This document shows positions 6,414 through 62,535 of a DNA stretch of 64,000 nt, in pieces (the first letter of the stretch is position 1; every line of letters begins with the position of its first letter). The stretch comes from Nannocystis pusilla (GTDB taxonomy: Bacteria > Myxococcota_A > Polyangia > Nannocystales > Nannocystaceae). The notes beneath the pieces are model-generated. The model saw only the letters and a program-made list of their open reading frames with translations, searched no databases and was not told the DNA's origin. The position numbers and the translations under genes are program-made. The stretch lies in assembly GCF_020073745.1 (NCBI RefSeq), contig NZ_JAIRAU010000002.1:17694-81693 (forward strand). Direction: 5' to 3'.

Positions 6414-6443
6414 CGCCGGGCTGCGGAGGCGTCGCGGACGGCT

Positions 6444-17679: not shown

Positions 17680-17709
17680 TGCACGGCGCGGGCCCGCCGG
17701 TCCGGTCGC

Positions 17710-42708: not shown

Positions 42709-42950
42709 GCGAAGTCCTGATCGATTCCCCGGGCATCCATCCGCGCGCAGGCCATACCGAGCGTCGTGCCGAGCATGGGATGCACCATGCTGTGTCGCCC
42801 TCGCTGACGCCCTGCAACGGTCCGGAGCTTGCCGTCATCGAGGAAGGCCGTGTTCACATTCGGCTCGTCTCCGAAGAGAGAAAAGACATCATCAGAAATG
42901 GCGGATTGATCGGGGAAATCGAACGAGCCGTGGAGCTCGCGTCATCGAGC

Positions 42951-45251: not shown

Positions 45252-45571
45252 CGCGCCCTTGCGCCGACCGTTTTCGCGCTTCTGGGCTCCCTGATCGAGC
45301 GCCACGACCTCGCGCTGTTGGTCGAGTTCATGCGCTCGACCTGGCGCACCGCCGAATTCGCCGAGTTCGCGCCGATCTTCGCCGAGGTGTTCGGCGAGCC
45401 GCTCGAGGCGGCGATGGCCGGTCTCGAGGTCGTGGGTTCGTGCCTCGACCCCGGCGGCCACGGCCCCGAGCACCAGCTGTCCCGAAGGACATCTAGCTCT
45501 CCTGCGGCCACGGACCGCGATCACCCCGCGCTTGCCTGCGCCTTGCGGCCTCTCTAGCCTGTCGGGACCCG

Positions 45572-49150: not shown

Positions 49151-51859
49151 GTGCCCGATCTGCCCGTCTCGCCTCCCTCGCCCCGCGGCCTCGACCTTCC
49201 GGGCGCCGCCTCCGAATTCGCGTCGCTCGTCGACGAGCGGCTGGCCAACGGCGCCCGCCTGCTGATCTTGCCGGCCCGCCCGGTCGGCGCCGGACCGGCG
49301 GCGATCCAGCTATGGGTGGGCTCGGGGACCGCGGCCGAGCGCCCGGACGAGCACGGGTGCGCCCACCTGCTCGAGCACATGCTCTTCAAGCCATGTGCTC
49401 TGGGACATGGCCCGAAGAGCATCCGCGCGCGCCTGGCGAAGGCCGGGGTGCGGCGGACCGAGCCGGCGCTCGACCTCGCGGGGGCGATCGAGGCGCTCGG
49501 CGGCGACATCAACGCGTTCACCAGCCACGACGAGACGGTGGTGCACGTGACGGCCCCGGCGGCGCGGGCGGCCGAGGCGGCGGCGCTGATCGCCGCGGCG
49601 ACGCTGCACCCGACGCTCGACCCGACCACGCTGGCGCAGGAGCGCGAGGTGGTGATCGAGGAGATCAAGCAGTACGACGACGACCCGGGCCAGCGGGTGA
49701 CGCAGGCGGCGCTCGGGCGGGTGTACGGGGGGCACGCGTACGCGCGGCCGGTGCTCGGGCTCGAGGCCGAGGTCGCCGGCCACACGGCGGCGCGGCTGCG
49801 GGCGTATCACCGCCGGGCCTACGCGGGCGAGCGGCTGACGCTGGTGGCCGTCGGCGCGGTCGACGTGGCGGCGCTGCGCAAGGTGGCGCGGGCGACCGTC
49901 GGGGCGCTGCCGGCCGCGCCGGCCCGGCGGCCGACGGGCGAGCCGGCGCCGCGGCCCGGGGTGACGGTGAAGCGCGCCGAGGTCCAGGAGGCCTATGTGC
50001 TGCTGGCCTGGCCGGCGCCCGCGGCCGGGGCGGCCGACGCGGCGGCGATCGACGCGGCGGCGGTGGTGCTCGGCAACGGCGAGTCGTCGCGCCTGGTCGC
50101 CGAGACACGGCGCAAAGAACAGGTCGTTTCGGACATCCAGGCCCACTGCGACACGCTGCGGCTCGGCGGGTCGGTGCTGGTGTCGGCGCGCACGACCGCG
50201 GCCCAGGCGGCCGCGGCGGTGACGGCGGTGCTGGCCCAGGTGCGGCGGCTGGCGGCGGCGCCGGTGTCGCCCGAGGAGCTGGCGCGGGCCAAGGCGATCC
50301 TCGAGAGCGACCTGGTGTACCGGCGCGAGACGGTGCAGGGGCAGGCGCACGCGCTCGGGGCGTGCGCGACGATCTTCGGCGACCTGGCGCGCGAGCGCGA
50401 GTACTACGCGGCCCTGGCCGCGCTGACGCCGGAGGCGGTCCGCTCGGCCTGCGCCCGCTGGCTCGACCCGGCGCGCGCGTGCGTCAGCCTCGAGCTGCCG
50501 CGCGCCGAGGTGGATGTCGCCAAGGCCAGGTCGGTCAAGTCCGCGGTCGACGCGGCGCTGAAGCCGGCGGAGGGGCCGCGGCGCGACGGTCCGGCGCCGA
50601 AGCGCGCGCCCGACGGGATCGACACGCTGACGCTGCCGAACGGGCTGCGGCTGCTGGCGCGGGTCGAGCGGGCGGTGCCGGTGGCGGCGGGCTGGCTGAT
50701 CTGGCCCGGGGGACAGCGGCGCGAGCCGGCGGCGCTGGCCGGCTCGAACTCGGTGGCCGCGGCCCTGCTCACCCGCGGCAACGCGCGCATGGACGGCGAG
50801 GCGCTGAGCCGGGCGATCGACGGCATGGCGGCGGGGCTCGACGGGTTCGCCGGCCGCAACAGCCTCGGGCTGCACTTCGAGTGCCTGGCGCGCCACTTCC
50901 CGGCGGTGCTCGGGCACGCGCTCGACTGCACGATCACGCCGACGTTCGCGGCCGACGAGCTCGAGGAGGAGCGGCGCGTGGCCCTGCAGGATCTGGCGGC
51001 GGAGGTCGACGACCCGGGCCAGGTGGCGTCCCGCGGGCTGCACAAGCTCCTGTACGGCGAGCACCCGTTCAGCCGCCCGGTCCGCGGCACTCCCGAGGGG
51101 CTGCGCGCGCTGACGCCGGCCAAGTTGAAGGCGCTGTGGCGGCGCGACTACCCGATCGGCCAGGCGGTGCTGGCGCTGGCCGGCGACGTCGACGTCGCGG
51201 CGGCGGCGGCCCAGGTCGAGGCGGCGCTGCGCGAGGCTGGCCTCTGGGACAGGATGTCCGAAAGGCCAGGCAAGGCGAAGCCGGTGCAGGCGCCGCGAGG
51301 GCCGCGCGAGCGCGAGATCTTCCAGGACCGCGAGCAGGCCCACATCGCCCTCGGCTGGCCGGGGATCGCCGTCGGCGACGAGCGCGAGCCGACGCTCGAC
51401 GTGCTCAGCGCGGTGCTCGGCGGCCAGACGGGGCGGCTGTTCACGGCGCTGCGCGAGGTCCAGGGGCTGGTGTACGAGGTGTCGATGTCGAGCGTCGAGG
51501 GCGTCGACGCCGGTCACGTGGCGATCCACGCGTCGACCAGCCAGGACAAGCTGCCGAAGGCGCTGGCCGCGATCGCGGCGGAGGTCGAGCGCGCGGTGCG
51601 AGAGCCGCCGTCGCCGGCCGAGGTGGCGCGCGCGCAGGCGTGGCTGGTCGGCCAGTTCGAGCTCGGGCAGCAGCGCCGCAGCCGGATGGCGTCGCTGCTG
51701 GCGCTGTCGGAGGTGTACGGGCTGCCGCGGGCGCGCGCGTTCGCCTACCCGCAGCGGGTCCGGGCGGTCACGCCGGAGGGGGTGTGGGCGCTGGCCCGCA
51801 CGCTGTTCCGCCCGCAGGTCGCGGCGCGCTGCGTGGTGCGGGCGAAGCGGCGCAAGTGA
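49151..51859 (+). CDS. M16 family zinc peptidase (pitrilysin/insulinase-like), two tandem M16 units
   Basis: Inverted zinc motif HLLEHM (HxxEH). Downstream GGDINAFTS...ETV. 902 aa is consistent with two M16 halves. An ~18-aa insertion (PCALGHGPKSIRARLAKA) sits right after HMLFK relative to the usual HFLEHMxFKGT...NAFTS spacing. Confidence 0.8.
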   Translation: MPDLPVSPPSPRGLDLPGAASEFASLVDERLANGARLLILPARPVGAGPAAIQLWVGSGTAAERPDEHGCAHLLEHMLFKPCALGHGPKSIRARLAKAGVRRTEPALDLAGAIEALGGDINAFTSHDETVVHVTAPAARAAEAAALIAAATLHPTLDPTTLAQEREVVIEEIKQYDDDPGQRVTQAALGRVYGGHAYARPVLGLEAEVAGHTAARLRAYHRRAYAGERLTLVAVGAVDVAALRKVARATVGALPAAPARRPTGEPAPRPGVTVKRAEVQEAYVLLAWPAPAAGAADAAAIDAAAVVLGNGESSRLVAETRRKEQVVSDIQAHCDTLRLGGSVLVSARTTAAQAAAAVTAVLAQVRRLAAAPVSPEELARAKAILESDLVYRRETVQGQAHALGACATIFGDLAREREYYAALAALTPEAVRSACARWLDPARACVSLELPRAEVDVAKARSVKSAVDAALKPAEGPRRDGPAPKRAPDGIDTLTLPNGLRLLARVERAVPVAAGWLIWPGGQRREPAALAGSNSVAAALLTRGNARMDGEALSRAIDGMAAGLDGFAGRNSLGLHFECLARHFPAVLGHALDCTITPTFAADELEEERRVALQDLAAEVDDPGQVASRGLHKLLYGEHPFSRPVRGTPEGLRALTPAKLKALWRRDYPIGQAVLALAGDVDVAAAAAQVEAALREAGLWDRMSERPGKAKPVQAPRGPREREIFQDREQAHIALGWPGIAVGDEREPTLDVLSAVLGGQTGRLFTALREVQGLVYEVSMSSVEGVDAGHVAIHASTSQDKLPKALAAIAAEVERAVREPPSPAEVARAQAWLVGQFELGQQRRSRMASLLALSEVYGLPRARAFAYPQRVRAVTPEGVWALARTLFRPQVAARCVVRAKRRK

Positions 51860-51904
51860 GCGCGGGCGCCGGCGCGCGGCGCTTCGCGTGGGCGAGAGTG
51901 CGTG

Positions 51905-52072
51905 TGTCCGAAAGGATATGCTCTTTCGGGCATGTGCTCTTCTATGTGTACAGGAAGACATGTCTGCGGAGACATGTCTTGTTCACCTCGCGCGCTCGGA
52001 GGCGCGGCCCCACGGTCGCCATCGCAGGGGACGTGATGAAAAGGACATGTTTTAAGAGGCATGTCTTCGGGG
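51905..52072. repeat. Intergenic cluster of 14-nt-periodic CATG-core decamer repeats (lower-GC island)
   Basis: ccgaaaggATATGCTCTttcgGGCATGTGCtctt...AGACATGTCTgcggAGACATGTCT...GGACATGTTTtaagAGGCATGTCT. Each decamer pair is separated by 4 nt. Confidence 0.8.
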
Positions 52073-52999
52073 CTAGCTGCGAGCGCGCCGCGCGGTGGCC
52101 CGGGCGGAGCCGCGCCCGACGTGCGCGCCGAGGCCGGCCCACAGCGCGTCGAAGACGGTCCGGCAGCGCCGTGAGGCCTTGAGATCTTCGTGCATGGCGA
52201 GCCACATCTCGACCTTCGGCGCGAACTCGCCGGCGAGCACGCGCACAAGCCCGGCGCGGCGGGCCAGCGAGACGTGGCAGGCACCGATCCCGCACCCGGC
52301 CCGGATCGCCGCGAACTGGGCGACGTCGTCGTCGGTGCGGAAGCTGAAGGCGTCGCGCGTGAGCGGCCGGCCGCCGAGGCGCAGGGTGCCGGTGTACGGG
52401 GCGGGCACGTCGAAGCCGACCAGGGCGTGCCGGGCCAGGGCCGCGGGAGTGGTCGGGGCCGGCCGGCGCGCGAGGTAGCCGGGCGCGGCGAACAGGCCGA
52501 GCTCGAAGGCGCCGACGCGTTTGGCCAGCAGCGCGCCCTGGCTCGGGCGAACCGTCCGCACGGCGATGTCGGCGTCGCGCCGCACGAGGTCGGCGATCCG
52601 GTTCGACACCACCAGCTCGACGACGATGCCGGGGTGCTCGGCCTGGAGGGCGGCGAGGACCGGCGGTAAGACCTCGGCGGCGACGATCTCGCTGGCGGTG
52701 ATCCGCACGGCGCCGACGTTCTCGGCCAGCGGGCCCGAGGCCTTGCGCAGCAGCGAGTCGGTGGCGGCGACCAGGGCCTCGACCTCGGGGCGCAGCGCCT
52801 CGGCGGCGGGCGTGGGCGCGAGCCCGCCGCGCGAGCGGGTGAACAGGGGCAGCCCGAGCGCCGCCTCGAGCGCGGCGACGTGACGGCCGAGCGTGGGCTG
52901 GCTGAGTCCGAGCCGACGCGCGGCCGCCGACAGCGAACCCTCGCGCAGGACCGCGGCGAACGCCCGGTACAGCGACCAGTCCGGCGGAGCGAGAGACAT
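52073..52999 (-). CDS. LysR family transcriptional regulator
   Basis: N-terminal wHTH (LYRAFAAVLREGSLSAAARRLGLSQPTLGRHVAALE) and a LysR substrate-binding domain. Divergent from the epoxide hydrolase gene. Confidence 0.85.
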   Translation of the reverse strand: MSLAPPDWSLYRAFAAVLREGSLSAAARRLGLSQPTLGRHVAALEAALGLPLFTRSRGGLAPTPAAEALRPEVEALVAATDSLLRKASGPLAENVGAVRITASEIVAAEVLPPVLAALQAEHPGIVVELVVSNRIADLVRRDADIAVRTVRPSQGALLAKRVGAFELGLFAAPGYLARRPAPTTPAALARHALVGFDVPAPYTGTLRLGGRPLTRDAFSFRTDDDVAQFAAIRAGCGIGACHVSLARRAGLVRVLAGEFAPKVEMWLAMHEDLKASRRCRTVFDALWAGLGAHVGRGSARATARRARS

Positions 53000-53081
53000 T
53001 CAAGGATGAATAGACGTTCCCCACTTTTATGCAATTCCAAACGGATGGCCGGACCGGCAGGTTCGCGGGCGGAGACCGAAC

Positions 53082-54194
53082 ATGCAGACCATCGACGTCC
53101 AGCCCTTCACCGTCGCGGTGCCCGAGGCCGCGCTCACCGACCTGCGGCGCCGCCTGGCCCAGACCCGCTTCACCGACGCGCTCGCCGACGCCGGGCCCGA
53201 CTGGGGCGTCGAGCCGGCGGCGCTGCGGGCCCTGGTGGCCCACTGGCAGCGCTTCGACTGGCGCGCCGCCGAGGCGGCGATCAACGCGTTCCCGGCGTTC
53301 CGCGCGCAGATCGGCGGGATCGGGCTGCACTTCGTGCACGCGCGCGGACGGGCGCCTCGGCGGCTGCCGCTCGTGCTCACCAACGGCTGGCCGAGCTGCT
53401 TCACCGAGCTGCTGCCGCTGGTGCCGCTGCTGACCGAGCCGGTCGACGGGGTCGGGTTCGACGTGGTGATCCCGTCGCTGCCCGGATACGGCTTTTCGGA
53501 CAGGCCGAGCCGGAGCGGCATGAACATCACCCGGATCGCGGCGCTGTGGGCCGAGCTGATGGCCGAGCTCGGCTACCCGCGGTTCTTCGCCCACGGCAGC
53601 GACATGGGCGCGGGCGTGGTCGAGCGACTGCGGGCCGACCACCCCGAGCGCGTGCTCGGCATCCACATGGTCAACGTGTTCTGGGGCTATCCGCGGCCGC
53701 CGGCGCCGACGCCCGCGGAGGCGGCGTACCTCGAGCGCGGGCCGCAGTGGCAGCAGCGCGAGGGCGCCTACGCGGCGCTCCACGCGACCCGGCCGCACAC
53801 GATCGCGGCCGGCCTCAACGACTCGCCGGCCGGCCTGGCGGCGTGGATCGGCGAGAAATTCGCGGCGTGGAGCGAGCGGCCGCCGTCGCTCGACGCGCTG
53901 TGCACGATCTTGACGATCTACTGGGTGACCGAGACGATCGCGTCGTCGCAGCGGCTGTACCGCGAGACATTCGCCGACGCGGGCGCGATGGCCCCGCCGC
54001 CCCGGCGCGGGCCGCCCGTGGCGGTGGCGATCTTCCCCGGCGACATCCTGCCGGCCCCGCGCGCGTGGGGCGAGCGGTGGTTCGAGCTCGCGCGTTGGAC
54101 GGAGATGCCGCGCGGCGGCCACTTCCCCGGCCTGGAGGCGCCCGAGCTGCTGGCGGCGGACATCCGCGCGTTCGCGGCGGGGCTCGTGGCGTGA
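53082..54194 (+). CDS. Epoxide hydrolase (alpha/beta-hydrolase with N-terminal EHN domain)
   Basis: Epoxide-hydrolase N-terminal-domain-like start (FTVAVPEAALTDLRRRLAQTRF), GIGLHFVHARG and alpha/beta-hydrolase features. Confidence 0.7.
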   Translation: MQTIDVQPFTVAVPEAALTDLRRRLAQTRFTDALADAGPDWGVEPAALRALVAHWQRFDWRAAEAAINAFPAFRAQIGGIGLHFVHARGRAPRRLPLVLTNGWPSCFTELLPLVPLLTEPVDGVGFDVVIPSLPGYGFSDRPSRSGMNITRIAALWAELMAELGYPRFFAHGSDMGAGVVERLRADHPERVLGIHMVNVFWGYPRPPAPTPAEAAYLERGPQWQQREGAYAALHATRPHTIAAGLNDSPAGLAAWIGEKFAAWSERPPSLDALCTILTIYWVTETIASSQRLYRETFADAGAMAPPPRRGPPVAVAIFPGDILPAPRAWGERWFELARWTEMPRGGHFPGLEAPELLAADIRAFAAGLVA

Positions 54195-54200
54195 CGGGCG

Positions 54201-54520
54201 ATGGCTGGACTTGAGGGCATGTTCGTGAGGGCATGTCCTCCCGGCCATGAGCGCGCGGCGACGGGCGCGCGGCCGCGGAGACATGTCCATGAGCGTATGT
54301 CCTCGGGTTCACGCGCGTGCGAACCGGCGCTCCTCGCCGACCGGCGGCGATTCGCTCGTCGGGGCAGCAGGAACGACGCGGCGGCGCGAGCGAGGCGGCC
54401 CTCGCTCGGGCGCTTCATGGCAGTCTCGTCGGAATAGCGACAGCTACCGGAGCCGCTCGAGTGGAGCGGTCCAGTCATGCCCCGGCGCGCGAGGCGGGTT
54501 GTCCTTGAGGGCATGTCCTC
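54201..54520. repeat. Intergenic cluster of 14-nt-periodic CATG-core decamer repeats
   Basis: GGGCATGTTCgtgaGGGCATGTCC (54218-54241), AGACATGTCCatgaGCGTATGTCC (54279-54302), GTTGTCCTTGAGGGCATGTCC (54495-54515). Confidence 0.75.
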
Positions 54521-54734
54521 AGGGCCAGTCGTCGAGATCGAGGCCGCGGCCGAGCTCCGGGTCGGCCGCGAGCAGGTCCCGCAGGGTGGCCTCGCGCAGG
54601 CCGAGGGCGCGCGCGCCGGCGCTCACGCTGGCCTGGGCCGTCAGGACGGCCCGGACCTCGCGGCGGAAGGCGGCGGGATCCGTGCGGCGCAGGGCCAGCA
54701 GCAGCGGCTCGCGGGGCTCGGCGGGGAGGGTCAC
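54519..54734 (-). CDS. Small Fis-type HTH protein (71 aa)
   Basis: SVSAGARALGLREATLRDLL resembles the Fis/NtrC C-terminal HTH. GTG start, no clear RBS. Confidence 0.35.
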   Translation of the reverse strand: MTLPAEPREPLLLALRRTDPAAFRREVRAVLTAQASVSAGARALGLREATLRDLLAADPELGRGLDLDDWP

Positions 54735-54772
54735 GCGCGGACTGTAGCGCGCTTGTCGCCGGCGGGGCGGTC

Positions 54773-55381
54773 GTGCTTCAGTCGCCCGGGATGACGAGGC
54801 GACGGACAGGCGCGTGGTCGTTCGTGGGGCTGATGTTGCTGGGGTGCGACCCGGCCGGGCGCGAGCGGGCGGCGCTGCAGGCCGAGCTGGAGGCGATGTC
54901 GGCGCTGCTCGCGGAGCACCGGGCGCAGATCGAGGCGCTGCAGGCCGATCTGGTGCAGCAGCAGCTCGCGCTGCAGGAGTGCCGACGGCCGAGCGCGCCG
55001 AATTTGCCGGCGCTGCCGGCGAGCGGGCCGGACGCGCCGGCGCTGACGCCGACGTGCGACGCCGGGGTTTGCGTGGTGAAGCGCGCCGAGTTCGAGGCGC
55101 TGATGGAGGCGCCGGCGGTGCTGGCCCGGCTCGCTCGCGTGATCCCGTCGACGCGAGAGGGGAAGGTCGTGGGGTACAAGCTGTACTCCGTCCGGCCGGG
55201 CACGCCGCTGGAGCTCGCCGGCTTCAAGAACGGCGATCTGATCCAGACCATCGACGGTGAGGCGCTCGGCGGCGCCGACGAGGTGTTGGGGCTGTTCGTC
55301 AAGCTGCGCCGGCTCGACCGCTGGACGATCGCGGGGCTGCGCAAGGACGCGCCGTTCGAGCTGACGATCGCGGTCGAGTGA
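54773..55381 (+). CDS. Lipoprotein with coiled-coil and a C-terminal PDZ-like domain
   Basis: Lipobox LLGC. EALQADLVQQQLALQ coiled-coil. C-terminal GYKLYSVRPGTPLELAGFKNGDLIQTIDGEAL is PDZ-like. Confidence 0.55.
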   Translation: MLQSPGMTRRRTGAWSFVGLMLLGCDPAGRERAALQAELEAMSALLAEHRAQIEALQADLVQQQLALQECRRPSAPNLPALPASGPDAPALTPTCDAGVCVVKRAEFEALMEAPAVLARLARVIPSTREGKVVGYKLYSVRPGTPLELAGFKNGDLIQTIDGEALGGADEVLGLFVKLRRLDRWTIAGLRKDAPFELTIAVE

Positions 55382-55420
55382 GCGCGAACGGGGGCCTGCC
55401 CGGCCCGGATTCGGATGGCT

Positions 55421-55800
55421 GAAAGGACATGTCGTCGGCGCCAGCCGCGAGCGACGACATGCCCGAAAGGACACGTTCGCTCCGCGGCTCGCCGAGCGCG
55501 CCGTCGCCCTGAGCGACAGCGACCCGATGGGAAGCGCGCTCTCGGTGCTCGACGCCGACTCGCCGGCGTCGACGCGGGTCGGTCGGGGCGGGGCCGTGAG
55601 GTCGCGGCCTGCGGGGGGCCGGGGGCGACGCTCGTAGGACACGGCCCCCCGCAGGGCGGGTCCGTGGAGGCGTTTGTGCATGTTCGAGTGGACATGTCTC
55701 AAGGGACATTTGCGAACGACGGACCCGAGGGGGCGGAGCTGCCCGTGGACATGTGTCCGCATGGACATGTCGTTCGCGCCAGCTCCGGTCGAGTGTCCGC
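55421..55800. repeat. Intergenic cluster of the same repeat family in a convergent region
   Basis: tgaaaGGACATGTCG...CGACATGCCCgaaaGGACACGTTC (55421-55475). TGGACATGTCtcaaGGGACATTTG and GTGGACATGTGTCCGCATGGACATGTCG (55690-55790). Confidence 0.75.
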
Positions 55801-55950
55801 GGGCGCGGGATCTCGCGTCGATCGCCGTCGCGGTCTCGAACGACATTCAGTAACTGGGCGGAGCGCGGAGCGGGTCCGCGCTGTTGACCGGGGTTCAAGC
55901 GCGGCGCGTCGCGGTGTGGCGCGGGCCACACGGATCTGCACCGTGTCGGA

Positions 55951-57720
55951 TCAGGCGGCCGAGGCGACGCCGAGGCTGCGCGCGAGGGCGCGGGCGACGG
56001 CGAGCGGGCGGCCCTTGAACACGCGGACGTAAGGAATGGCGCTGGCCCGGGCGGCGCGGGCCAGGATCCCGTCGATGTTGTGGGCCTGGAAGCCGGTGGC
56101 GATGAGCACGTAGTCGTAGCTGTGGCGCGAGATGCTCTCGCACTGGGCCTGGACCTTGCGGGCGTTGCCGTCGCACCAGGTGATGTCGAGGCCGAGCGAC
56201 TCCTCGAGCTTGGACTTGAGATCGGGGTCCTCGCGGTTGCTGACGAACAGGACCCGCTTGCCCTCGACCTTGGGCCGGACCTGGGCGACGAGGTGCGCGC
56301 CCGGATCGTCGACGTCGTCGGTCTCCTCCTCGAGGTCGCCGTCGCCTTCGGACGGCAGCACGCCGAGCTCGCCGCGCTTGAGCACGTCGTGCAGGCCGGT
56401 GAGGCGGCGACGCAGGCGGCGATCCTCGAACAGGTCGGGCCGCAGGGCGTCGATGCGCGGCCGGATCGGCTGGACCAGCGAGGCGACCTCGGGCGTGTTG
56501 TGGGCGTCGAAGGCCCGCTGCAAGAAGGCGAGCAGGGCCTCGTCGTCGAAGCTGTCGGCGGCCGCCAGCGCGTCGCGTTCGGCCCGCACGGCCGCCTGTT
56601 GCTGGCGCACCTGATCGGCGGAGGGACCGGTGCGGGCCCGCTCCGGCGGGGGGATGAACTCGGGGTCGAGCCAGCGGCGGAGCAGCGGCAGACGCTCGCC
56701 GAGGCGCCCCGCGAGCCAGCGCAGGCGACCCATGACGGCGCCCCAGGTCTCGGGGTCCTCGGCGGCGATGAAGCGACGGATCTCGCGCAGCGCCTGGGCG
56801 TGCTTGAGCAGCGCGTCGAGCTGCTCGTTGGGCAGCTCCTCGGGCGGCGTGGTGAGGTGGCGCGGCGGCGGGTCGGTGACGTTGCCGGCGATGGCCTCGA
56901 TGGCCCGCTGGGCCTCACGCAAGAGCGTGCGCGGCGGGCCCGGCGGGGTCTTGCGCGCGCGATCGGCCCAGCCGTAATCGTCGACCGGGACCTCGCTGGT
57001 CAGCGCCCGATCCTTGTGGTTCTGCACGAACTCGTGGGCCTCGGCCCAGGTCTTCGGCGCGTGCAGGGTCTTGAGCCCGAGCTCGGTGACCACGCACGCG
57101 GGCACGGCGTTCATCTGCAGCGCCTGCACCGAACCCGGCCACAAGGTCTTGCTCAGGTTGGTCAGCTCGTGGGCGATGCGCCGCACCAGCACGGTGATCT
57201 TGTGCTCGCCCTGGAACTGCTCGTCGAAGCTGCGCGCGCGCGAGATCCAGGCCAGCATGTAGACCTTTTGGTAGCGCGGGGACATGAGCGCGAAGTCGGG
57301 GCGCATGTCCTGGATGTCCTTGAGGATCTCTTCCAGCGTCTCGCGCGCCTCGGCGACCGCCGCCGCAGGATAGGTGGGCAGCTGAATTCGGCCGACGATC
57401 GGGCTGCGCGGCTGCTCGGGCTCGGGCGAGGCGGCAGCAGGCGGGGCGGAGATAGGTTCGGTGGATACGGAGGGCGGGACCGGCGCCGCGGGCGGGCGCG
57501 CTGGCTCCTGGAGGCCGTCGCGGAAGCGATCGAAGAGCTGACGCGCCGCCGCCGAGGGGAACATCTGCGTCAGCGCGTCTTCGAGGGCGCTGTCGCGGTC
57601 GGGTCCGCGGCCGAGCCAGCGCTCCGCGTCGCGCCAGATCAGCACCTCGGTCCACTGATGGGTATACATCGCGTGGCGATAGCCGCTGTCCGCGAGAAAC
57701 TTGGGTAGCCCGTCGTGCAT
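55951..57720 (-). CDS. Hypothetical protein (589 aa)
   Basis: Long ORF with high GC3. The C-terminal KRVLFVSNR...YDYVLIATGF...IPYVRV region is reminiscent of DUF2325-like domains. Function unknown. Confidence 0.5.
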   Translation of the reverse strand: MHDGLPKFLADSGYRHAMYTHQWTEVLIWRDAERWLGRGPDRDSALEDALTQMFPSAAARQLFDRFRDGLQEPARPPAAPVPPSVSTEPISAPPAAASPEPEQPRSPIVGRIQLPTYPAAAVAEARETLEEILKDIQDMRPDFALMSPRYQKVYMLAWISRARSFDEQFQGEHKITVLVRRIAHELTNLSKTLWPGSVQALQMNAVPACVVTELGLKTLHAPKTWAEAHEFVQNHKDRALTSEVPVDDYGWADRARKTPPGPPRTLLREAQRAIEAIAGNVTDPPPRHLTTPPEELPNEQLDALLKHAQALREIRRFIAAEDPETWGAVMGRLRWLAGRLGERLPLLRRWLDPEFIPPPERARTGPSADQVRQQQAAVRAERDALAAADSFDDEALLAFLQRAFDAHNTPEVASLVQPIRPRIDALRPDLFEDRRLRRRLTGLHDVLKRGELGVLPSEGDGDLEEETDDVDDPGAHLVAQVRPKVEGKRVLFVSNREDPDLKSKLEESLGLDITWCDGNARKVQAQCESISRHSYDYVLIATGFQAHNIDGILARAARASAIPYVRVFKGRPLAVARALARSLGVASAA

Positions 57721-57900
57721 CGCCCGTTACGCTAGTCTTTTCGCGCTGCTGCTGCAACGAAGGGGCAAAATGCCGCGCGCGGCCCGAGGTCCGCGCGGGC
57801 AGGGTGAGGGCCTGCCCCGGCGGAGGCTGTTCAGCGCCGCGCGCGCCGCGAGGACGCCGTTCGCCGCCCTCGCAATCGGACCTGAACCGCGTGCCGCGGC

Positions 57901-58680
57901 TCAGGTGCCGAGGACCGAGCCGCCGTCGACGCTCAAAGTGGCGCCGGTGATGAAGCTCGACTTCTCGTCGGCGAGGAAGAGGTAGGCGCGAGCGATGTCG
58001 TCGGGCTGACCCGCGCGGCCGACCGGGGTGTGCTCGATCATCGACTTCAGGACCTTCTCCGGGATGCTCTCCACCATCGACGTGGCGACGAAACCCGGGG
58101 CGACGACGTTGGCGGTGATGCCGTAGCGGCCGAGCTCGCGCGCCCATACGCGCGTCATGCCGATCACGCCGGCCTTGGCGGCGACGTAGTTGGTCTGGCC
58201 GAAGTTGCCGTAGAGGGCGACGACCGAGCTGGTGCTGACGATGCGGCCGTACTTCTGGGCGATCATGGTCGGGACGACCGCCTGGGTGCAGTTGAACACG
58301 CCCTTGAGGCAGACATCGAGGACGAACTGGAACTGCTCGGCGCTCATCTGGCCGACCACCTGTCCGTCCTTGACCTTGACCAGCTGGCCGTCGCGGACGA
58401 CCCCGGCGTTGTTGATGAGGACGTCGATGCGGCCGAACCGCTCGACCACGGCGGCGGCCGCGGCGGCGCAGTCCTCGGGCTTGCTGACGTCGACCTTGCG
58501 GGCGATGGCGACGCCGCCGGCGGCGGTGATCGCGGACACGACCTCCTCGGCTGCCTGTTCGGCCAGGTCCCACACGGCGACGGCGTAGCCGGCGTCGGCG
58601 AGCATGCGAGCGGTGGCGCGGCCGATGCCGTTGCCGCCGCCGGTGACGATGGCGATCCGCGGTGAATTGGTGCTTGTCAT
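57901..58680 (-). CDS. fabG: SDR family 3-oxoacyl-ACP reductase (FabG-like)
   Basis: IAIVTGGGNGIGRA (TGxxxGxG), NNAG, YVAAKAGV (YxxxK). Divergent from the ACP-led lipid cluster. Confidence 0.85.
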   Translation of the reverse strand: MTSTNSPRIAIVTGGGNGIGRATARMLADAGYAVAVWDLAEQAAEEVVSAITAAGGVAIARKVDVSKPEDCAAAAAAVVERFGRIDVLINNAGVVRDGQLVKVKDGQVVGQMSAEQFQFVLDVCLKGVFNCTQAVVPTMIAQKYGRIVSTSSVVALYGNFGQTNYVAAKAGVIGMTRVWARELGRYGITANVVAPGFVATSMVESIPEKVLKSMIEHTPVGRAGQPDDIARAYLFLADEKSSFITGATLSVDGGSVLGT

Positions 58681-58853
58681 GGGGCGGCGAGGGTACCGAG
58701 AGGCGCTCGGAGCCGCCTGCACCAAGAGCCAGCCCGAAGATGTGAGCTTGCGCCGTGTCGGTGGGGCAAAGCACGCTCCGCTCGGGTGTCCACGGAGGGG
58801 GAAGGGCGAGGCTTGTCGGCTCCCGGGCGATCCCCGTAGGATGCGCCGACCCC

Positions 58854-59144
58854 ATGACAGATGCCGCCCCGCCCGACGCGCTGGTCCGCGAGATCAAGGA
58901 GCTCATCATCGAGGCCCTGATGCTGCAGGACATGACCCCCGAGGACATCGACCCCGAGGCGCCGCTGCTGGTCGAGGGGCTGGGCCTCGACTCGATCGAC
59001 GTGCTCGAGCTGGCGATGGCGATCGGCAAGAAGTACGGGGTCAAGACCAAGGCCGACGACGCGCAGAACCGGCACATCTTCGCCAGCGTGACCAACCTGG
59101 CCCGCTTCGTCGCCGAGCAGCGGGCGGCCGCGGCGGCGAGCTGA
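58854..59144 (+). CDS. Acyl carrier protein
   Basis: LGLDSIDVLELAMAIGKKYG, with the DSI/DSL phosphopantetheine-attachment serine. ~96 aa. Confidence 0.75.
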   Translation: MTDAAPPDALVREIKELIIEALMLQDMTPEDIDPEAPLLVEGLGLDSIDVLELAMAIGKKYGVKTKADDAQNRHIFASVTNLARFVAEQRAAAAAS

Positions 59145-59156
59145 GAACCGGCGGCC

Positions 59157-59810
59157 GTGATGGCGGACCCTGACGGCAAGCCGCAGCGGGCCGCGGGGGT
59201 CCCGAGGTGGCTCCCGGCGGTGCTGCGTTCGCTGCTGGTCGGCGGCTACCCGCTGGTGGTGTACCTCGGCATGACGCGCTGGAGCCCGCGCACGCTGGCG
59301 CTGGTGCTCGCCTGCGCGCTGCTGCCGGGGCTCGTGCTGCGCCTGCGCGAGGCCCGGCGCGAGGACCTGTGGCCGGTGCTGCGGGTGCCGCTGTCGCTCC
59401 TCGGGCTGTTCGCGGCGGCGGCGCTGTCGGGCGAGCAGCGGCTGTTCATGGCCCTGCCGGTGCTGGTCAACCTGGGGCTTTTGGCCAACTTCGCGGCGAG
59501 CCTGCGCGGGCCGGCGTCGCTGGTCGAGCGGTTCGCGCGGCTGCAGGAGCCCGAGCTGCCGCCCGGCGGGCCGGCGTACTGTCGCAAGGTCACGGTGGTC
59601 TGGTGCGGGTTCTTCGTCGCCAACGCGGCCGCCAGCGCCGCGCTCGCGCTGTGGGCCCCGGTGTCCTGGTGGACGCTGTACACCGGACTTTTGGCGTACC
59701 TGCTGATCGGGGTAATGTTCACCGTCGAGTACGTCGTCCGCAAGGCGACCTTCCGCCGGTTCGGCGACGCGTTGCCCGACCGCCTGCTCCGCCGTCTGCT
59801 CCGCGCATGA
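59157..59810 (+). CDS. Integral membrane protein (possibly COG4648-like, as found in aryl-polyene clusters)
   Basis: Five or six TM helices. Sits between the ACP and AMP-ligase genes. Its stop overlaps the next gene's start (ATGA). Confidence 0.45.
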   Translation: MMADPDGKPQRAAGVPRWLPAVLRSLLVGGYPLVVYLGMTRWSPRTLALVLACALLPGLVLRLREARREDLWPVLRVPLSLLGLFAAAALSGEQRLFMALPVLVNLGLLANFAASLRGPASLVERFARLQEPELPPGGPAYCRKVTVVWCGFFVANAAASAALALWAPVSWWTLYTGLLAYLLIGVMFTVEYVVRKATFRRFGDALPDRLLRRLLRA

Positions 59811-61633
59811 GGTCCTTCGTCCCGCTCGTCTACACCGATCCCGCGGCGCGCGTCGCCGTCGGCGAGGCCGGCCCGCGCAGCGCGGGCGAGCTGATGCGCG
59901 ACGCGAGCCTCGTCGCCGAGCGCCTGCCGCCGGCGCGGCCCGGCAGCGAGGTGCTGGTGGTCTGCGGCGACCGCTATCACCTGGCGGTCACGGCCCTGGG
60001 CGCGTGGCTGCGCGGCCACGCGGTCGCGCTGCCGCCGAACGCCCAGCCGGCGGCGGTGCGCGAGCTGGCGGGGCGGCCCGACGTGGTGGCGCTGATCCAC
60101 GACTCCGACCTGGCCGACGCCCAGGACGTCCGCGAGTGGCTCTCGGGACATGCTCTCGGGGTCATGGCCGATCCGACATGGCCCGAAGCGCTACCGGCGG
60201 ACCGGCGGCTGGCGGTCGTGTACACCTCGGGCAGCACCGGCGACCACCAGCCGTGCGCCAAGACGGCCGGGCAATTGCTCGGCGAGGCGCAGGCGCTGGC
60301 GGCCACGTTCGCGCTGGCGGCCGGCGAGGTGGCGCTGGCGACGGTGCCGCCGTACCACCTCTACGGGCTGCTGTTCGGGGTGCTGGCGCCGCTGGCCGCG
60401 GGGGCGGCGTTCGCCCGCGAGACGCCGCTGCACGCCGAGACGGTGGCGAGGGCGGCGCGCGAGGTCGGGGCGACGGTGCTGGTCAGCACGCCGGCGCACC
60501 TGCGCGGGCTGACGGTGCTGCAGCGCGGCGACCTGCCGCCGCTGCGGCGGGTGTTCTCGTCGGGCGCGCCGCTGCCGCGGGCGACCGCGGACGAGCTGCT
60601 GGCCCAGCTCGGGCTGGCGGTGACCGAGGTGTACGGCTCGTCGGAGACCGGCGGGATCGGCTGGCGGCGGCACGAACAAGTCTTGGGGGACATGTCCCCG
60701 GAGCCAGCCTGGACGCCGCTGCCGGGGGTCGCGGTCGAGGTCGCGGCCGAGGGGCGGCTGCTGCTGCGCTCGCCGTTCCTGGCCCCCGACGCGCCGTCGC
60801 CGTACCCGTGCGAGGACCGGGCCCTGCTCGACGCGCGCGGCGGGTTTCACCTGCGCGGGCGGCTCGACGGGGTGGTGAAGGTCGCCGGCAAGCGAGTGGC
60901 CGTGGCGGAGGTCGAGCAGCGGCTGCTGGCGCTGCCGGCCGTGGCCGACGCGGCGGTGGTGGCGACCGAGACGCCGGGCGCCCGCGGGCACGAATTGATG
61001 GCCGCGGTGGTGGCCCGCGATTCGGGGCGCGACGCCGGCGAGCTGGTGGCCGAGCTGCGGCGGGGGCTGCTCCCGTGGTTCGACCCGGTGGTGGTGCCGC
61101 GGCGGATCAAGGTGGTGCCGGCGCTGCCGCGCGAGCCCAACGGCAAGCTGACGAAGCGGCGCCTGCACGCGCTGCTCGGGCTGACGGCGGAGGAGCCGGC
61201 CGAGGCGGAGCGCGGCGGATCGGTCGCGGCCGCGGACGCGAGCGGGGCTGCGGGGGACTCGGCGGGCGCGGCTGTGATCGGGTTCGAGGTCCGTGGGCAC
61301 GTGCGGCGCGAGGCGGGCGACGCGGCGGTGCACGAGGTCGAGGTCGGGGTGCCGGTCGACCTGGCGTTCTTCCGCGGGCACTTCGACGGCGCGCCGGTGC
61401 TGCCCGGCGTGGCGCAGCTGACGGCCCTGGTGGTGCCGCAGGTGGCGGCGCTGCGGCCCGAGCTGGGGCGGCTGCGGCAGGCGGCGCGGCTGAAGTTCAC
61501 CCGGCCGATCGCGCCGGGCGACGCGCTGGTGCTGCGGCTCGAGGTGCGGGGGACGAGCGTCCGCTTCTCGCTGGCCCGCGCGGGCGAGGTGGTCACCGCC
61601 GGGGCGCTCGAGTACGAGGCGCGCGGTGACTGA
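59807..61633 (+). CDS. AMP-dependent synthetase/ligase fused to a C-terminal FabZ/FabA-type hotdog dehydratase domain
   Basis: AMP-binding motifs YTSGSTGDHQP, SSGAPL, YGSSETG, GKRVAVAEVEQ, PREPNGKL. C-terminal FFRGHFDGAPVLPGVAQL is the FabZ signature. The ATG at 59807 is translationally coupled. Confidence 0.8.
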   Translation: MRSFVPLVYTDPAARVAVGEAGPRSAGELMRDASLVAERLPPARPGSEVLVVCGDRYHLAVTALGAWLRGHAVALPPNAQPAAVRELAGRPDVVALIHDSDLADAQDVREWLSGHALGVMADPTWPEALPADRRLAVVYTSGSTGDHQPCAKTAGQLLGEAQALAATFALAAGEVALATVPPYHLYGLLFGVLAPLAAGAAFARETPLHAETVARAAREVGATVLVSTPAHLRGLTVLQRGDLPPLRRVFSSGAPLPRATADELLAQLGLAVTEVYGSSETGGIGWRRHEQVLGDMSPEPAWTPLPGVAVEVAAEGRLLLRSPFLAPDAPSPYPCEDRALLDARGGFHLRGRLDGVVKVAGKRVAVAEVEQRLLALPAVADAAVVATETPGARGHELMAAVVARDSGRDAGELVAELRRGLLPWFDPVVVPRRIKVVPALPREPNGKLTKRRLHALLGLTAEEPAEAERGGSVAAADASGAAGDSAGAAVIGFEVRGHVRREAGDAAVHEVEVGVPVDLAFFRGHFDGAPVLPGVAQLTALVVPQVAALRPELGRLRQAARLKFTRPIAPGDALVLRLEVRGTSVRFSLARAGEVVTAGALEYEARGD

Positions 61634-62459
61634 GATGTCCGCAGGGACAGGTGAGAACGAGGTGTCCGGAGGGGCAGGTGAGATGTCCGGCGGGACAGGT
61701 CCGTTCCGGCCGTGCGCGCTGATCCCGACCTACGACAACCCGCGGACGGTGCGCGACGTGGTGCTGCGGGTCAAGGCGCACCTGCCCGACGTGGTCGTGA
61801 TCGACGACGGCAGCGGCGAGGCGGGGCGGCAGGCGGTCGCGGCCCTGGGGGCCGAGGGGCTGGCGCACGTGCGCCGGCGGGCGCAAAACGGCGGCAAGGG
61901 GGCGGCGGTCAAGACCGGGTTCCAGTTCGCGCGCGAGCTCGGCTACACCCACGCGCTGCAGGTCGACGCCGACGGGCAACATGACCTCGGGGACATCCCG
62001 AAATTCCTGGCGACCGCGCGCGAGCGGCCGGACGCGCTGATCCTCGGGGCGCCGGTGTACGACGCGTCGGCGCCGAAGGGGCGGCTGGTCGCCCGCAAGA
62101 TCACGCTGTTCTGGACCGACTTCGAGGCCGGCCGCGGGGTCATCACCGATCCGATGTGCGGCTTCCGGGTCTACCCGCTGGACCCCGCGCTGGCGCTCGG
62201 ACGCACCGGCGACCGCATGGACTTCGACATCGAGGTGGCGGTGCGCCTGGTGTGGGCCGGGGTGCCGGTGATCAACCTGCCGACGAAGGTCCGCTACATC
62301 GGCCGCGACGAGGGCGGGGTGTCGCACTTCCGCGTGTTCGGCGACAACCTCAAGATCTCGTGGCTGCACACCCGGCTGTCGTTCCAGCGGGTGATGGTGC
62401 GGCCGTGGATCAAGCTGTGGCGGCGCCTGCGGCGGCCGGCGCTGCCGGCTGGGCGCTGA
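61626..62459 (+). CDS. Family 2 glycosyltransferase
   Basis: CALIPTYDNPRTV...VVVIDDGSGE (DxD)...QVDADGQHD. The first ~19 codons (MTEMSAGTGENEVSGGAGEMSGG) are encoded by 7-nt-periodic repeats, so the real start may be the ATG at 61680. Confidence 0.8.
   Translation: MTEMSAGTGENEVSGGAGEMSGGTGPFRPCALIPTYDNPRTVRDVVLRVKAHLPDVVVIDDGSGEAGRQAVAALGAEGLAHVRRRAQNGGKGAAVKTGFQFARELGYTHALQVDADGQHDLGDIPKFLATARERPDALILGAPVYDASAPKGRLVARKITLFWTDFEAGRGVITDPMCGFRVYPLDPALALGRTGDRMDFDIEVAVRLVWAGVPVINLPTKVRYIGRDEGGVSHFRVFGDNLKISWLHTRLSFQRVMVRPWIKLWRRLRRPALPAGR
61630..61705. repeat. 7-nt-periodic repeat block overlapping the ligase stop and GT2 start
   Basis: gatgtcc gcaggga caggtga gaacgag gtgtccg gagggg caggtga gatgtcc ggcggga caggtcc. 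A 21-nt super-unit GATGTCCGSMGGGACAGGTSM occurs twice. Confidence 0.7.
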
Positions 62460-62462
62460 GCG

Positions 62463-62535
62463 AGAGGACAGGTTCGATCGGCCATGGCGGAAGAGGCAGG
62501 TTCGGAGGGACATGTCCCGGCGGTCAGGCCCGAGG
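62463..62535. repeat. Five contiguous 14-nt units of the repeat family at the GT2/acyltransferase junction
   Basis: gaggACAGGTTCGA / tcggCCATGGCGGA / agagGCAGGTTCGG / agggACATGTCCCG / gcggTCAGGCCCGA. Confidence 0.8.

What the first reader, a model, noticed from the sequence alone, without database searches (positions are those of the whole stretch)
49376..62535. Dispersed family of 14-nt-periodic repeats: CATG-core palindromic decamer (GGACATGTCC-like) plus 4-nt spacer
At least twelve loci carry 2-5 contiguous 14-nt units. Each unit is a 10-nt RRRCATGYYY-like palindrome plus a 4-nt spacer (GAAA, GAAG, TCAA, GCGG, TCGG). The motif CGAAAGGACAKG recurs at least six times (47617, 51257, 51911, 52040, 55424, 55461). 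Intergenic copies sit in lower-GC islands (51905-52072, 54201-54520, 55421-55800), including a convergent 3' region, so they are not simply promoter sites. Other copies lie at gene 5' ends and inside ORFs. None of the protein features explain this.
Basis: seen in the sequence. Interest (0 to 1): 0.8.

Follow-up and report, generated by a model that had tools for sequence, protein, structure and literature searches.

The report
Genus-wide palindromic repeat arrays in Nannocystis
The window, from a Nannocystis myxobacterium, carries a real and apparently undescribed family of short palindromic DNA repeats (GGACATGTCC every 14 bases) that is scattered over all sampled Nannocystis genomes, lies mostly just downstream of genes, and looks like a binding platform for an unidentified DNA-binding protein.

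Summary
The window has 12 phased arrays of at least 2 units, against 0.09 in shuffles, all between 47.7 and 61.7 kb. An exact 20-mer scan of 185,579 species' genomes returned 98 of 120 loci from Nannocystis or Nannocystaceae. In 771 kb of those loci, CATG-to-CATG distances peak sharply at 14, 28, 42 and 56 nt.

The basic unit is better read as a 14-bp inverted repeat, TGTCC-N4-GGACA. Abutting copies create the CATG core and the 14-nt period. Arrays are extragenic and biased to gene 3' ends (convergent 74, tandem 75, divergent 14), and half the tandem cases lie within 31 nt of the stop codon. Spacers are unrelated but AT-enriched. Between species the core changes least (3%), then the decamer flanks (15%), then the spacers (24%). 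There is no strand asymmetry, no U-tract, no GNRA preference and no larger mobile element. Arrays gain and lose 14-nt units.

The motif equals the canonical PadR operator, ATGT-N8-ACAT. All 8 actinobacterial exact hits lie next to a PadR gene.

Best reading: a REP/BIME-like, genus-specific repeat kept by sequence-specific recognition on double-stranded DNA. The binding protein and the function are not identified.

The parts
51900..51979 (.). Six-unit array on a strict 14-nt grid (decamers start at 51900, 51914, 51928, 51942, 51956, 51970). It lies between the convergent M16 peptidase (+) and LysR (-) genes.
   Evidence: Sequence read. Phased CATG pair at 51959. PWM arrays at 51914-51937 and 51956-51979. 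As single-stranded DNA it folds at -20 kcal/mol, z = -6.3. The orthologous site has 2 units in N. radixulma and 3 in L155.
52043..52066 (.). Doublet GGACATGTTT-TAAG-AGGCATGTCT, 7 nt from the LysR stop codon.
   Evidence: Conserved in L001 at 8966-8989.
54215..54252 (.). Three phased units (CATG at 54218, 54232, 54246), 21 nt after the epoxide hydrolase stop codon.
   Evidence: L001 has one unit fewer at the same place, a 14-nt indel.
54279..54302 (.). Doublet AGACATGTCC-ATGA-GCGTATGTCC.
   Evidence: The orthologous doublet in L001 is GTGCATGTCC-ATGA-GGACATGTCC.
54495..54518 (.). Doublet with a degenerate first unit (CGGGTTGTCC-TTGA-GGGCATGTCC). It abuts the stop codon of the small minus-strand ORF 54522-54749.
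55425..55478 (.). Decamer 55425-55434 plus doublet 55455-55478, embedded in a longer inverted repeat. It lies 44 nt after the stop codon of the PDZ protein gene.
   Evidence: Folds at -18.3 kcal/mol, z = -3.7.
55676..55713 (.). Three-unit array GTGCATGTTC-GAGT-GGACATGTCT-CAAG-GGACATTTGC.
   Evidence: The orthologous region in L155 is a near-perfect repeat of 8.9 copies of a 14-nt unit.
55747..55772 (.). Two decamers 16 nt apart that enclose an exact 14-bp site, TGTCC-GCAT-GGACA, at 55754-55767.
   Evidence: Conserved in L001 at 12587-12612.
49375..49426 (.). Intragenic array of 3-4 units inside the M16 peptidase gene. It starts at the conserved HxxEH-MLFK codons and runs into a lineage-specific loop insertion.
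   Evidence: Present in all four Nannocystis orthologues. Absent from more distant orthologues, which have shorter loops.
60146..60183 (.). Intragenic three-unit array inside the AMP-ligase/ApeI-like gene.
   Evidence: Conserved at the orthologous position in L001 (17011/17025) and L155 (19851/19865).
60674..60697 (.). Intragenic doublet ending in an exact GGACATGTCC at 60688-60697.
61636..61697 (.). Three 14-bp sites of the CTGTCC-N4-GGACAG flavour (61636, 61663 degenerate, 61684). They lie at the junction of the AMP-ligase stop codon and the glycosyltransferase start codon.
   Evidence: TRF periods 21 and 27. Conserved in L001 at 18525.
62508..62517 (.). Solitary exact decamer GGACATGTCC in the 5' part of the acyltransferase gene.
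47718..47741 (.). Weak doublet containing an exact site, TGTCC-GCAC-GGACA, at 47723-47736.
45478..45491 (.). Isolated exact 14-bp site TGTCC-CGAA-GGACA.

Best explanation
This is a Nannocystis-specific family of repetitive extragenic palindromes, comparable in position and abundance to REP/BIME elements.

Anatomy. The elementary unit is a 14-bp inverted repeat, TGTCC-N4-GGACA. It has two 5-bp half-sites whose centres are 9 bp apart, and an AT-enriched centre whose sequence is otherwise free. Copies that abut head to tail create the GGACA|TGTCC decamer with its CATG core, and with it the strict 14-nt period. The commonest array is a 24-bp doublet; arrays reach 6-7 units.

Shown here: the elements lie mainly just after stop codons, especially between convergent genes. 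They grow and shrink by 14-nt steps. Their half-sites are conserved while their spacers drift.

Inferred: the family is maintained because a dimeric, sequence-specific protein recognises it on double-stranded DNA and can line up side by side along an array. A PadR-type winged-helix protein is the best lead, because the motif is the canonical PadR operator ATGT-N8-ACAT. Its role would be structural or insulating at gene ends (for example blocking read-through, or organising supercoiling and the nucleoid) rather than promoter control. Neither the protein nor the role has been identified.
For: Reality and range:
- 12 phased arrays in the window against 0.09 in shuffles.
- 98 of 120 loci from the scan of the exact 20-mer over all genomes are Nannocystis or Nannocystaceae, spread over whole chromosomes.
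- In 771 kb of those loci the CATG-CATG distances are 14:323, 28:114, 42:84, 56:31, against a background of about 5-25.
- At the M16-peptidase locus, arrays are present in four Nannocystis genomes. They are absent from Enhygromyxa and two other Nannocystaceae.

Sequence-specific constraint:
- The consensus is GGACATGTCC, with 70-75% conservation at the flank positions. Spacers are unrelated to each other. Spacer GC is 0.49 against 0.69 in the flanks.
- Differences between orthologous arrays of different species: CATG core 3.1%, decamer flanks 14.6%, spacers 24.1% (Fisher p = 0.003).

Symmetry at the DNA level:
- No G.U versus A.C asymmetry (74 vs 67), a symmetric unit matrix on the sense strand, and no T-run after arrays (0 of 75).
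- No GNRA preference.
- Complementarity does not extend beyond the decamers.

What the unit is:
- 85 of 127 exact 14-bp sites stand alone; only 16 of 53 exact decamers do.
- The doublet dominates the size distribution: 2:134, 3:19, 4:14, 5:5, 6:4.

Position:
- Convergent 74, tandem 75, divergent 14, against length-based expectations of 33, 87 and 43 (chi-square p = 9e-17).
- In tandem intergenic regions half the arrays lie within 31 nt of the upstream stop codon. The median distance to the next start codon is 225 nt.

Dynamics:
- Orthologous arrays differ in unit number (6 vs 2 vs 3 units).
- L155 has 8.9 copies of a 14-nt unit at 89% identity.

PadR lead:
- ATGT/ACAT with an 8-10 nt spacer is the canonical PadR operator (PMC3506622).
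- All 8 actinobacterial exact hits (five Kribbella/Kribbellaceae, two Nocardia, one Amycolatopsis) lie beside a PadR-family gene.
Against: - No binding protein was identified. No PadR homologue was found in about 1 Mb of Nannocystis DNA sampled.
- A position after stop codons is atypical for a PadR repressor and typical of REP hairpins.
- Adjacent units show more reverse-complement (compensated) deviations than shuffled partners: 21.8% against 13.1 +/- 1.3%. A pure protein-site model does not predict this. It could reflect hairpin selection, or templated correction of quasi-palindromes.
- Some arrays fold very stably as single strands (z = -6.3 and -3.7).
- How a 14-24 bp element reaches what the sampled density suggests is thousands of loci is unexplained.
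- The locus sample was ascertained on perfect doublets. Gene calls came from a crude GC3-based caller. Orthologue pairs are not phylogenetically independent.
Confidence: 0.5

Rival explanations
1. These are classical REP/REPIN elements. The 24-nt doublet is a single-stranded DNA hairpin (10-bp stem, 4-nt loop) that a domesticated Y1 transposase (RAYT) recognises and spreads. The 3' location reflects where insertions are tolerated.
For: - The position and abundance profile is REP-like: extragenic, close to stop codons, enriched between convergent genes.
- The doublet is the dominant form and even unit numbers are favoured.
- Adjacent units show compensated changes while loops are free.
- Some copies form strong hairpins.
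- A dissemination mechanism is needed to explain what is probably thousands of loci.
Against: - Nothing conserved flanks the doublet, so there is no GTAG-like tetranucleotide and no asymmetry.
- Within one genome, copies share no more than 37 nt and their loops are unrelated.
- The isolated 14-bp site, with only a 5-bp stem, is the commonest form.
- Many degenerate arrays do not fold.
- No RAYT-like ORF was found in about 1 Mb. This is a weak test, because the query sequence was recalled from memory.
Confidence: 0.2
2. The arrays act as RNA elements in 3' UTRs. Hairpins formed by neighbouring palindromic units would terminate transcription or protect mRNA 3' ends, in both directions between convergent genes.
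For: - Half the tandem-context arrays start within 31 nt of the stop codon, and arrays are enriched between convergent genes.
- Perfect doublets give a 10-bp stem with a tetraloop.
- One canonical terminator-like hit overlaps the array at 51900-51937.
Against: - No U-tract after arrays (0 of 75) and no tolerance bias for G.U on the sense strand (74 vs 67).
- No stable-tetraloop preference.
- The primary sequence, not just the pairing, is conserved across the genus.
- The 14-nt register holds across odd numbers of units.
- Copies also occur inside genes.
Confidence: 0.15
3. The word is over-represented because of a mutational or repair bias. The analogy is the cyanobacterial HIP1 palindrome, or short-patch repair linked to a methyltransferase. 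No binding function would be involved.
For: - TGTCC-N4-GGACA is hugely over-represented inside coding DNA too: 38 of 74 sites that lack CATG flanks are coding.
- It is also frequent in a sister lineage that lacks arrays: L157 has 7 sites in 22.6 kb, all of them coding.
- Reading frames follow GC3 compatibility rather than a peptide motif.
Against: This does not explain the strict abutting register, the 3' and convergent bias, the AT-enriched spacer, or array growth by whole units.
Confidence: 0.07
4. These are ordinary operator sites of a transcription factor regulon that controls the neighbouring genes from their promoters.
For: - The motif equals a PadR operator and is used that way in actinomycetes.
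- A few copies overlap gene starts, for example 61636.
Against: - Only 14 of 163 classified intergenic arrays lie between divergent genes, and those lie 100-500 nt from either start codon.
- Genes downstream of start-proximal arrays share no function and include no regulator.
- Sampled density is roughly one array per 5-10 kb, which is far above the size of a regulon.
Confidence: 0.05

Closest known systems
REP / BIME elements of enterobacteria and pseudomonads (REPIN-RAYT systems)
   Same: Both are short extragenic palindromes present in many copies per genome. Both lie close to stop codons and between convergent genes, are often clustered, and have variable loops. Copy number differs between related strains.
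   Different: Here the arm is itself a perfect palindrome, so the element has no orientation, and there is no GTAG-type flank. Units abut in a strict 14-bp register with unrelated spacers, whereas BIMEs have conserved linkers. The minimal unit is only 14 bp. No RAYT gene was found.
PadR-family operators (ATGT-N8-ACAT), e.g. LmrR and PadR (PMC3506622)
   Same: The half-sites and spacing are identical. The exact 20-mer ACATGTCC-N4-GGACATGT lies beside PadR genes in Kribbella, Nocardia and Amycolatopsis. Conservation is strongest at CATG plus the adjacent A/T.
   Different: In Nannocystis the sites are not next to PadR genes and not at promoters. They are present at roughly one array per 5-10 kb and are multimerised.
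Tandem operator arrays bound by cooperative dimers (MetJ metboxes with an 8-bp period; omega repressor heptads; ParR/TubR centromere iterons)
   Same: Short palindromic or repeated units are directly abutted in variable number. Binding is expected to be side by side around the helix: a 14-bp step is a rotation of about 120 degrees, and 42 bp is 4 helical turns.
   Different: Those arrays lie at single promoters or centromeres. They are not dispersed genome-wide at gene 3' ends.
HIP1 (GCGATCGC), the highly iterated palindrome of cyanobacteria
   Same: Both are clade-specific palindromic words that are massively over-represented in both coding and non-coding DNA, with unknown function.
   Different: HIP1 is not phased into arrays and has no bias to gene 3' ends.
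Rickettsia palindromic elements (RPE)
   Same: Copies occur in frame inside protein-coding genes. In the M16 peptidase the array coincides with a lineage-specific loop insertion.
   Different: RPEs are 100-150 bp mobile elements with conserved full-length sequence.
p53 response-element half-site RRRCWWGYYY (GGACATGTCC)
   Same: The 10-bp consensus is the same. Every paper found in the library search for this word concerns p53 or unrelated primers.
   Different: This is a sequence coincidence only. No p53-like protein is implied and none was tested.

Membership tests
REP/REPIN-RAYT | Short palindromic extragenic repeats in many copies, near gene 3' ends | tested here: met
   239 arrays in 771 kb. 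184 of 239 are intergenic, against 24% non-coding DNA. The convergent and stop-proximal bias is strong.
REP/REPIN-RAYT | Conserved asymmetric flank (a GTAG-like tetranucleotide) that gives the element an orientation | tested here: not met
   Positions flanking 104 perfect doublets show no conserved bases beyond the decamers, and no complementarity.
REP/REPIN-RAYT | A cognate Y1 (RAYT) transposase gene flanked by the repeats | tested here: inconclusive
   phmmer with an E. coli RayT sequence recalled from memory found nothing in about 1 Mb of six-frame ORFs. Whole genomes could not be searched.
BIME | Mosaic of REPs in alternating orientation, joined by conserved linker motifs | tested here: not met
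   Spacers are unrelated to each other: direct similarity z of about 2, reverse-complement similarity not significant.
PadR operator | ATGT-N8-10-ACAT inverted repeat | tested here: met
   ACATGTCC-N4-GGACATGT contains ATGT-N8-ACAT. The consensus is from PMC3506622. The core is the most conserved part.
PadR operator | Located at the promoter of a PadR gene or of its target gene | tested here: not met
   This holds for 8 of 8 actinobacterial hits. Nannocystis copies are 3'-located, and no PadR gene was found in the sample.
PadR operator | Bound by a PadR-family protein | not testable with these tools
   Needs EMSA, DAP-seq or ChIP-seq.
Intrinsic (Rho-independent) terminator | GC-rich hairpin followed by a U-tract | tested here: not met
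   0 of 75 oriented arrays have a T-run of at least 4 within 15 nt. The terminator scan of the region found 3 hits against 2.7 expected.
MITE / larger mobile element | Conserved full-length sequence with terminal inverted repeats, shared between copies | tested here: not met
   Within one genome, arrays at different loci share no more than 37 nt and no flanks.
Known structured RNA families (Rfam) | Match to a curated covariance model | tested here: not met
   0 matches at gathering score over the whole window.
Minisatellite (simple tandem duplication) | Units, including spacers, similar to each other | tested here: inconclusive
   True for some young arrays: L155 has 8.9 copies at 89%, and L130 and L134 also look recent. 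Most arrays have random spacers, and TRF misses them in the window.

The most novel reading that the evidence does not exclude
Nannocystis uses a dedicated sequence-specific DNA-binding protein, possibly a recruited PadR-type winged-helix dimer. It would coat arrays of abutting 14-bp sites just after stop codons and act as a genome-wide, bidirectional roadblock or insulator at gene ends. That would be a protein-mediated termination and domain-boundary system in a bacterium whose high-GC genome shows no U-tract terminators at these sites. It would also explain why array-bearing junctions are where gene content differs between species.
Probability: 0.12. Interest if true: 0.85.

Novelty: new variant of a known kind. 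Interest (0 to 1): 0.6.

Why it matters
Dispersed palindromic repeats such as REPs shape mRNA stability, termination, supercoiling and genome plasticity. None turned up for myxobacteria in the literature searched here.

This family has an unusually simple and symmetric grammar: one 5-bp half-site, alternating spacings of 0 and 4 bp, and a strict register. It is restricted to one genus, and it shows clear purifying selection on the half-sites. That makes the binding partner easy to look for, for example by pull-down with a 24-bp probe.

It also offers a case of a local repressor's operator motif being re-used as a genome-wide element at gene 3' ends. Practically, the arrays mark junctions where gene content varies. 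They can also confuse annotation and repeat finders in Nannocystis genomes that are rich in biosynthetic gene clusters.

Tried and rejected
- Rfam at gathering score and tRNA scans of the window found nothing.
- The generic repeat finder was swamped by GC-rich noise. It flagged only the two intragenic copies as related (family D20).
- TRF misses the window arrays because the spacers differ.
- A viral-contig scan gave 33 single hits that look like chance.
- An exact-protein look-up of the window's LysR protein failed.
- A search for a larger mobile element or MITE found no shared flanks.
- A search for extended palindromes across spacers found none.
- Genes next to start-proximal or divergent arrays showed no common family and no regulator.
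- A PadR homologue search in the Nannocystis loci found none.
- A RAYT search with a sequence recalled from memory found none.
- Non-actinobacterial single hits of the 20-mer (Bryobacter, Planctomycetaceae and others) show no consistent neighbouring gene and are compatible with chance.
- Literature searches for the motif, for Nannocystis repeats, for REPs in myxobacteria and for PadR in Myxococcus returned nothing relevant.
- One Pfam batch failed because of wrong frames and was not repeated.
- I ran no further search on the Kribbella PadR. Its best 120 hits would almost certainly all be actinobacterial.

Full report
**Source and gene context.** The window is about 72% GC. Its epoxide hydrolase and M16 peptidase are 96-97% identical to those of Nannocystis radixulma, and the N. 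radixulma locus L001 is syntenic. The window therefore comes from a close relative of that myxobacterium.

Genes around the finding:
- M16 peptidase, 49151-51859 (+)
- LysR regulator, 52073-52999 (-)
- epoxide hydrolase, 53082-54194 (+)
- a roughly 75-aa ORF, 54522-54749 (-)
- PDZ protein, 54773-55381 (+)
- a 589-aa protein of unknown function, 55951-57720 (-)
- then a lipid or aryl-polyene-like cluster: SDR, ACP, AMP-ligase/ApeI-like, GT2 glycosyltransferase and an LpxL-like acyltransferase

The three intergenic motif clusters all lie between convergent genes.

- RRRCATGYYY occurs 14 times against 2.1 expected.
- CATG-to-CATG distances in the window peak at 14 and 28 nt.
- A position-weight scan finds 12 phased arrays of at least 2 units, against 0.09 in dinucleotide shuffles. 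All lie in 47.7-61.7 kb.

CGAAAGGACAKG occurs once exactly. The six listed places match only with 0-2 mismatches, although the relaxed pattern is still enriched at 24 against 5.8. Only one of the three 'low-GC islands' is clearly low in GC.

**Distribution beyond the window.** I scanned one genome from each of 185,579 species for ACATGTCC-N4-GGACATGT. Of these, 98 come from 11 Nannocystis or Nannocystaceae assemblies, at positions spread over whole chromosomes.

In these 98 blocks of 8 kb (771 kb in total), CATG-CATG distances are 14:323, 28:114, 42:84, 56:31 and 70:18, against a background of about 5-25. About 104 of the 323 pairs at distance 14 come from the scan pattern itself. The peaks at 28, 42 and 56 do not.

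At the orthologous M16 locus:
- A N. pusilla-like genome (89% identity) and a MAG (77%) have arrays at the same junctions.
- A MAG at 59% identity has no arrays, but has seven isolated TGTCC-N4-GGACA sites.
- Two other Nannocystaceae and Enhygromyxa have neither.

**Anatomy.** I found 239 arrays of 2-6 units. The unit consensus is GGACATGTCC, with 70-75% conservation at the flank positions. The 4-nt spacer has no preferred sequence.
- Spacers within an array are unrelated to each other, whether compared directly or as reverse complements.
- Spacers are AT-enriched: GC 0.49 against 0.69 in the flanks.
- GNRA and UNCG loops are not enriched.
- Away from the scan seeds, the exact 14-bp inverted repeat usually stands alone (85 of 127), whereas the exact decamer rarely does (16 of 53).
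- With seed-containing arrays removed, sizes are 2:134, 3:19, 4:14, 5:5, 6:4.

The elementary unit is therefore the spacer-centred site TGTCC-N4-GGACA. Abutting sites create the CATG core and the 14-nt period, and the 24-bp doublet is the typical form.

A second flavour, CTGTCC-N4-GGACAG, is also strongly over-represented. Half of its copies are inside genes, and their reading frames follow GC3 compatibility.

**Position.** With a crude GC3-based gene caller, 184 of 239 arrays are intergenic, although only about 24% of the DNA is non-coding.
- Among classified intergenic arrays, 74 are between convergent genes, 75 between tandem genes and 14 between divergent genes. The length-based expectations are 33, 87 and 43 (p = 9e-17).
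- In tandem regions half the arrays begin within 31 nt of the upstream stop codon. The median distance to the next start codon is 225 nt.
- Isolated sites show the same preference for positions just after stop codons.
- Genes next to the few start-proximal or divergent arrays share no family.

**DNA or RNA, structure or sequence?**

Points favouring sequence recognition on double-stranded DNA:
- Oriented arrays show no G.U versus A.C asymmetry (74 vs 67). The unit matrix is symmetric on the sense strand. No array is followed by a T-run.
- Complementarity stops at the decamer edges.
- Perfect arrays fold strongly as single strands (z = -6.3 and -3.7), but degenerate ones do not (z = +0.6 and -0.4).
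- Between species, the CATG core differs at 3.1% of positions, decamer flanks at 14.6% and spacers at 24.1%. These pairs are not phylogenetically independent.

One point favouring hairpins:
- Adjacent units share reverse-complement deviations more often than shuffled partners do: 21.8% against 13.1 +/- 1.3%. Hairpin selection would produce this. So would templated correction of quasi-palindromes.

**Dynamics.**
- Orthologous arrays differ in unit number. Downstream of the M16 gene there are 6 units in the window, 2 in L001 and 3 in L155. There is also a 14-nt indel at 54215.
- L155 carries 8.9 copies of the unit GCGAGGACATGCGC at 89% identity.
- Within one genome, arrays at different loci share no more than 37 nt and no flanks. 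There is therefore no larger mobile element.

**Lead to a binding protein.** ATGTCC-N4-GGACAT contains ATGT-N8-ACAT, the canonical PadR-family operator (PMC3506622). All eight actinobacterial exact hits lie next to a PadR-family gene, typically paired with a short-chain dehydrogenase gene. These are five Kribbella/Kribbellaceae, two Nocardia and one Amycolatopsis. The other non-Nannocystis single hits look like chance.

The half-site centres are 9 bp apart and the centre is AT-rich, as in typical helix-turn-helix dimer sites. The conservation gradient, strongest at CATG and the adjacent A/T, fits the ATGT/ACAT contacts. No PadR homologue lies in the roughly 1 Mb of Nannocystis DNA sampled, so this remains a lead and not a result.

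**Comparison with known systems.** By position, abundance and variability the family behaves like REP/BIME elements. However, it fails several tests:
- It has no asymmetric flank.
- It has no conserved linkers.
- No RAYT gene was found, though that test was weak.
- It is not an intrinsic terminator, not a MITE and not in Rfam.

The library searches found the decamer only as the p53 half-site or in unrelated primers. They found nothing on such repeats in Nannocystis or other myxobacteria.

**Verdict.** This is a real, genus-wide and apparently undescribed dispersed repeat family, and a new variant of the REP-like kind. The most likely mechanism is sequence-specific recognition of abutting 14-bp palindromic sites on double-stranded DNA by a dimeric protein acting at gene 3' ends (confidence about 0.5). 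The main rivals are RAYT-type single-stranded hairpins (0.2) and RNA 3' hairpins (0.15).

Noticed in passing
window 51860-52072, 52073-54194, 55382-55950; L001 8486-8911; L155 12777-13205 and 14542-15191; L156 13909-17353: Gene content differs between Nannocystis species exactly at the array-bearing junctions. A gene of about 141 aa is present in L001 and L155 but missing from the window. The LysR and epoxide hydrolase genes are present only in the window and L001. An HTH_3 gene plus a 139-aa gene are present only in L155, and three extra genes only in L156. Arrays flank each variable segment.
   Followed up: partly
window 49375-49460 (M16 peptidase): The intragenic array starts at the conserved HxxEH-MLFK codons and runs into a loop insertion of about 20 aa. 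The insertion is found only in Nannocystis orthologues; Paraliomyxa, Enhygromyxa and other Nannocystaceae have 4-15 residues there. The repeat may have expanded in frame inside a gene.
   Followed up: partly
L157 13854-14000, also 1925, 4471, 11997, 19837: A more distant Nannocystaceae MAG (59% M16 identity) has no CATG arrays. It does have seven CTGTCC-N4-GGACAG sites in 22.6 kb, all in coding DNA, three of them about 36-96 nt apart inside a TPR protein gene.
   Followed up: partly
L049 990-1065, L062 6720-6790, L081 1000-1060, L055 6255-6300, L097, L100, L083, L150: In Kribbella, Nocardia and Amycolatopsis the same 20-mer lies between a PadR-family gene and a short-chain dehydrogenase gene. 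It often has a second, phased copy nearby. This is probably a conserved operator of that gene pair.
   Followed up: partly
window 48577-48871: A perfect tandem repeat (53-nt unit, 3.0 copies, 100% match, with overlapping 68- and 106-nt periods) lies in the very GC-rich stretch upstream of the M16 peptidase gene. ORFs in the 46-49 kb region have no Pfam match.
   Followed up: no
window 25399-42834 (-): A single ORF of about 5,800 aa. The orthologous gene in L001 is an NRPS with AMP-binding, PP-binding and Condensation domains.
   Followed up: no
window 14732-18090 (-): A RiPP-like gene set: an MbnB/TglH/ChrH-family enzyme, a B12-binding radical SAM enzyme and a small 126-aa ORF.
   Followed up: no
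window 57901-64000; L001 14764-21113: An aryl-polyene or flexirubin-like lipid cluster: SDR, ACP, AMP-ligase with an ApeI-like domain, GT2, an LpxL-type acyltransferase and, in L001, an aromatic ammonia-lyase. Several motif copies lie inside it or at its gene junctions.
   Followed up: no
L087 (Bryobacter MAG) 5857-5900 and 6007-6441: The Bryobacter hit is followed by repeated GTCCGGACGGACA-like words. Translated, these give reiterated 'RTD/VRTDR' peptides. It may be an unrelated repeat.
   Followed up: no
all loci: The decamer consensus GGACATGTCC is identical to the optimal p53 half-site. Every paper found for this word concerns p53 or unrelated primers. This looks like a coincidence of sequence.
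   Followed up: partly
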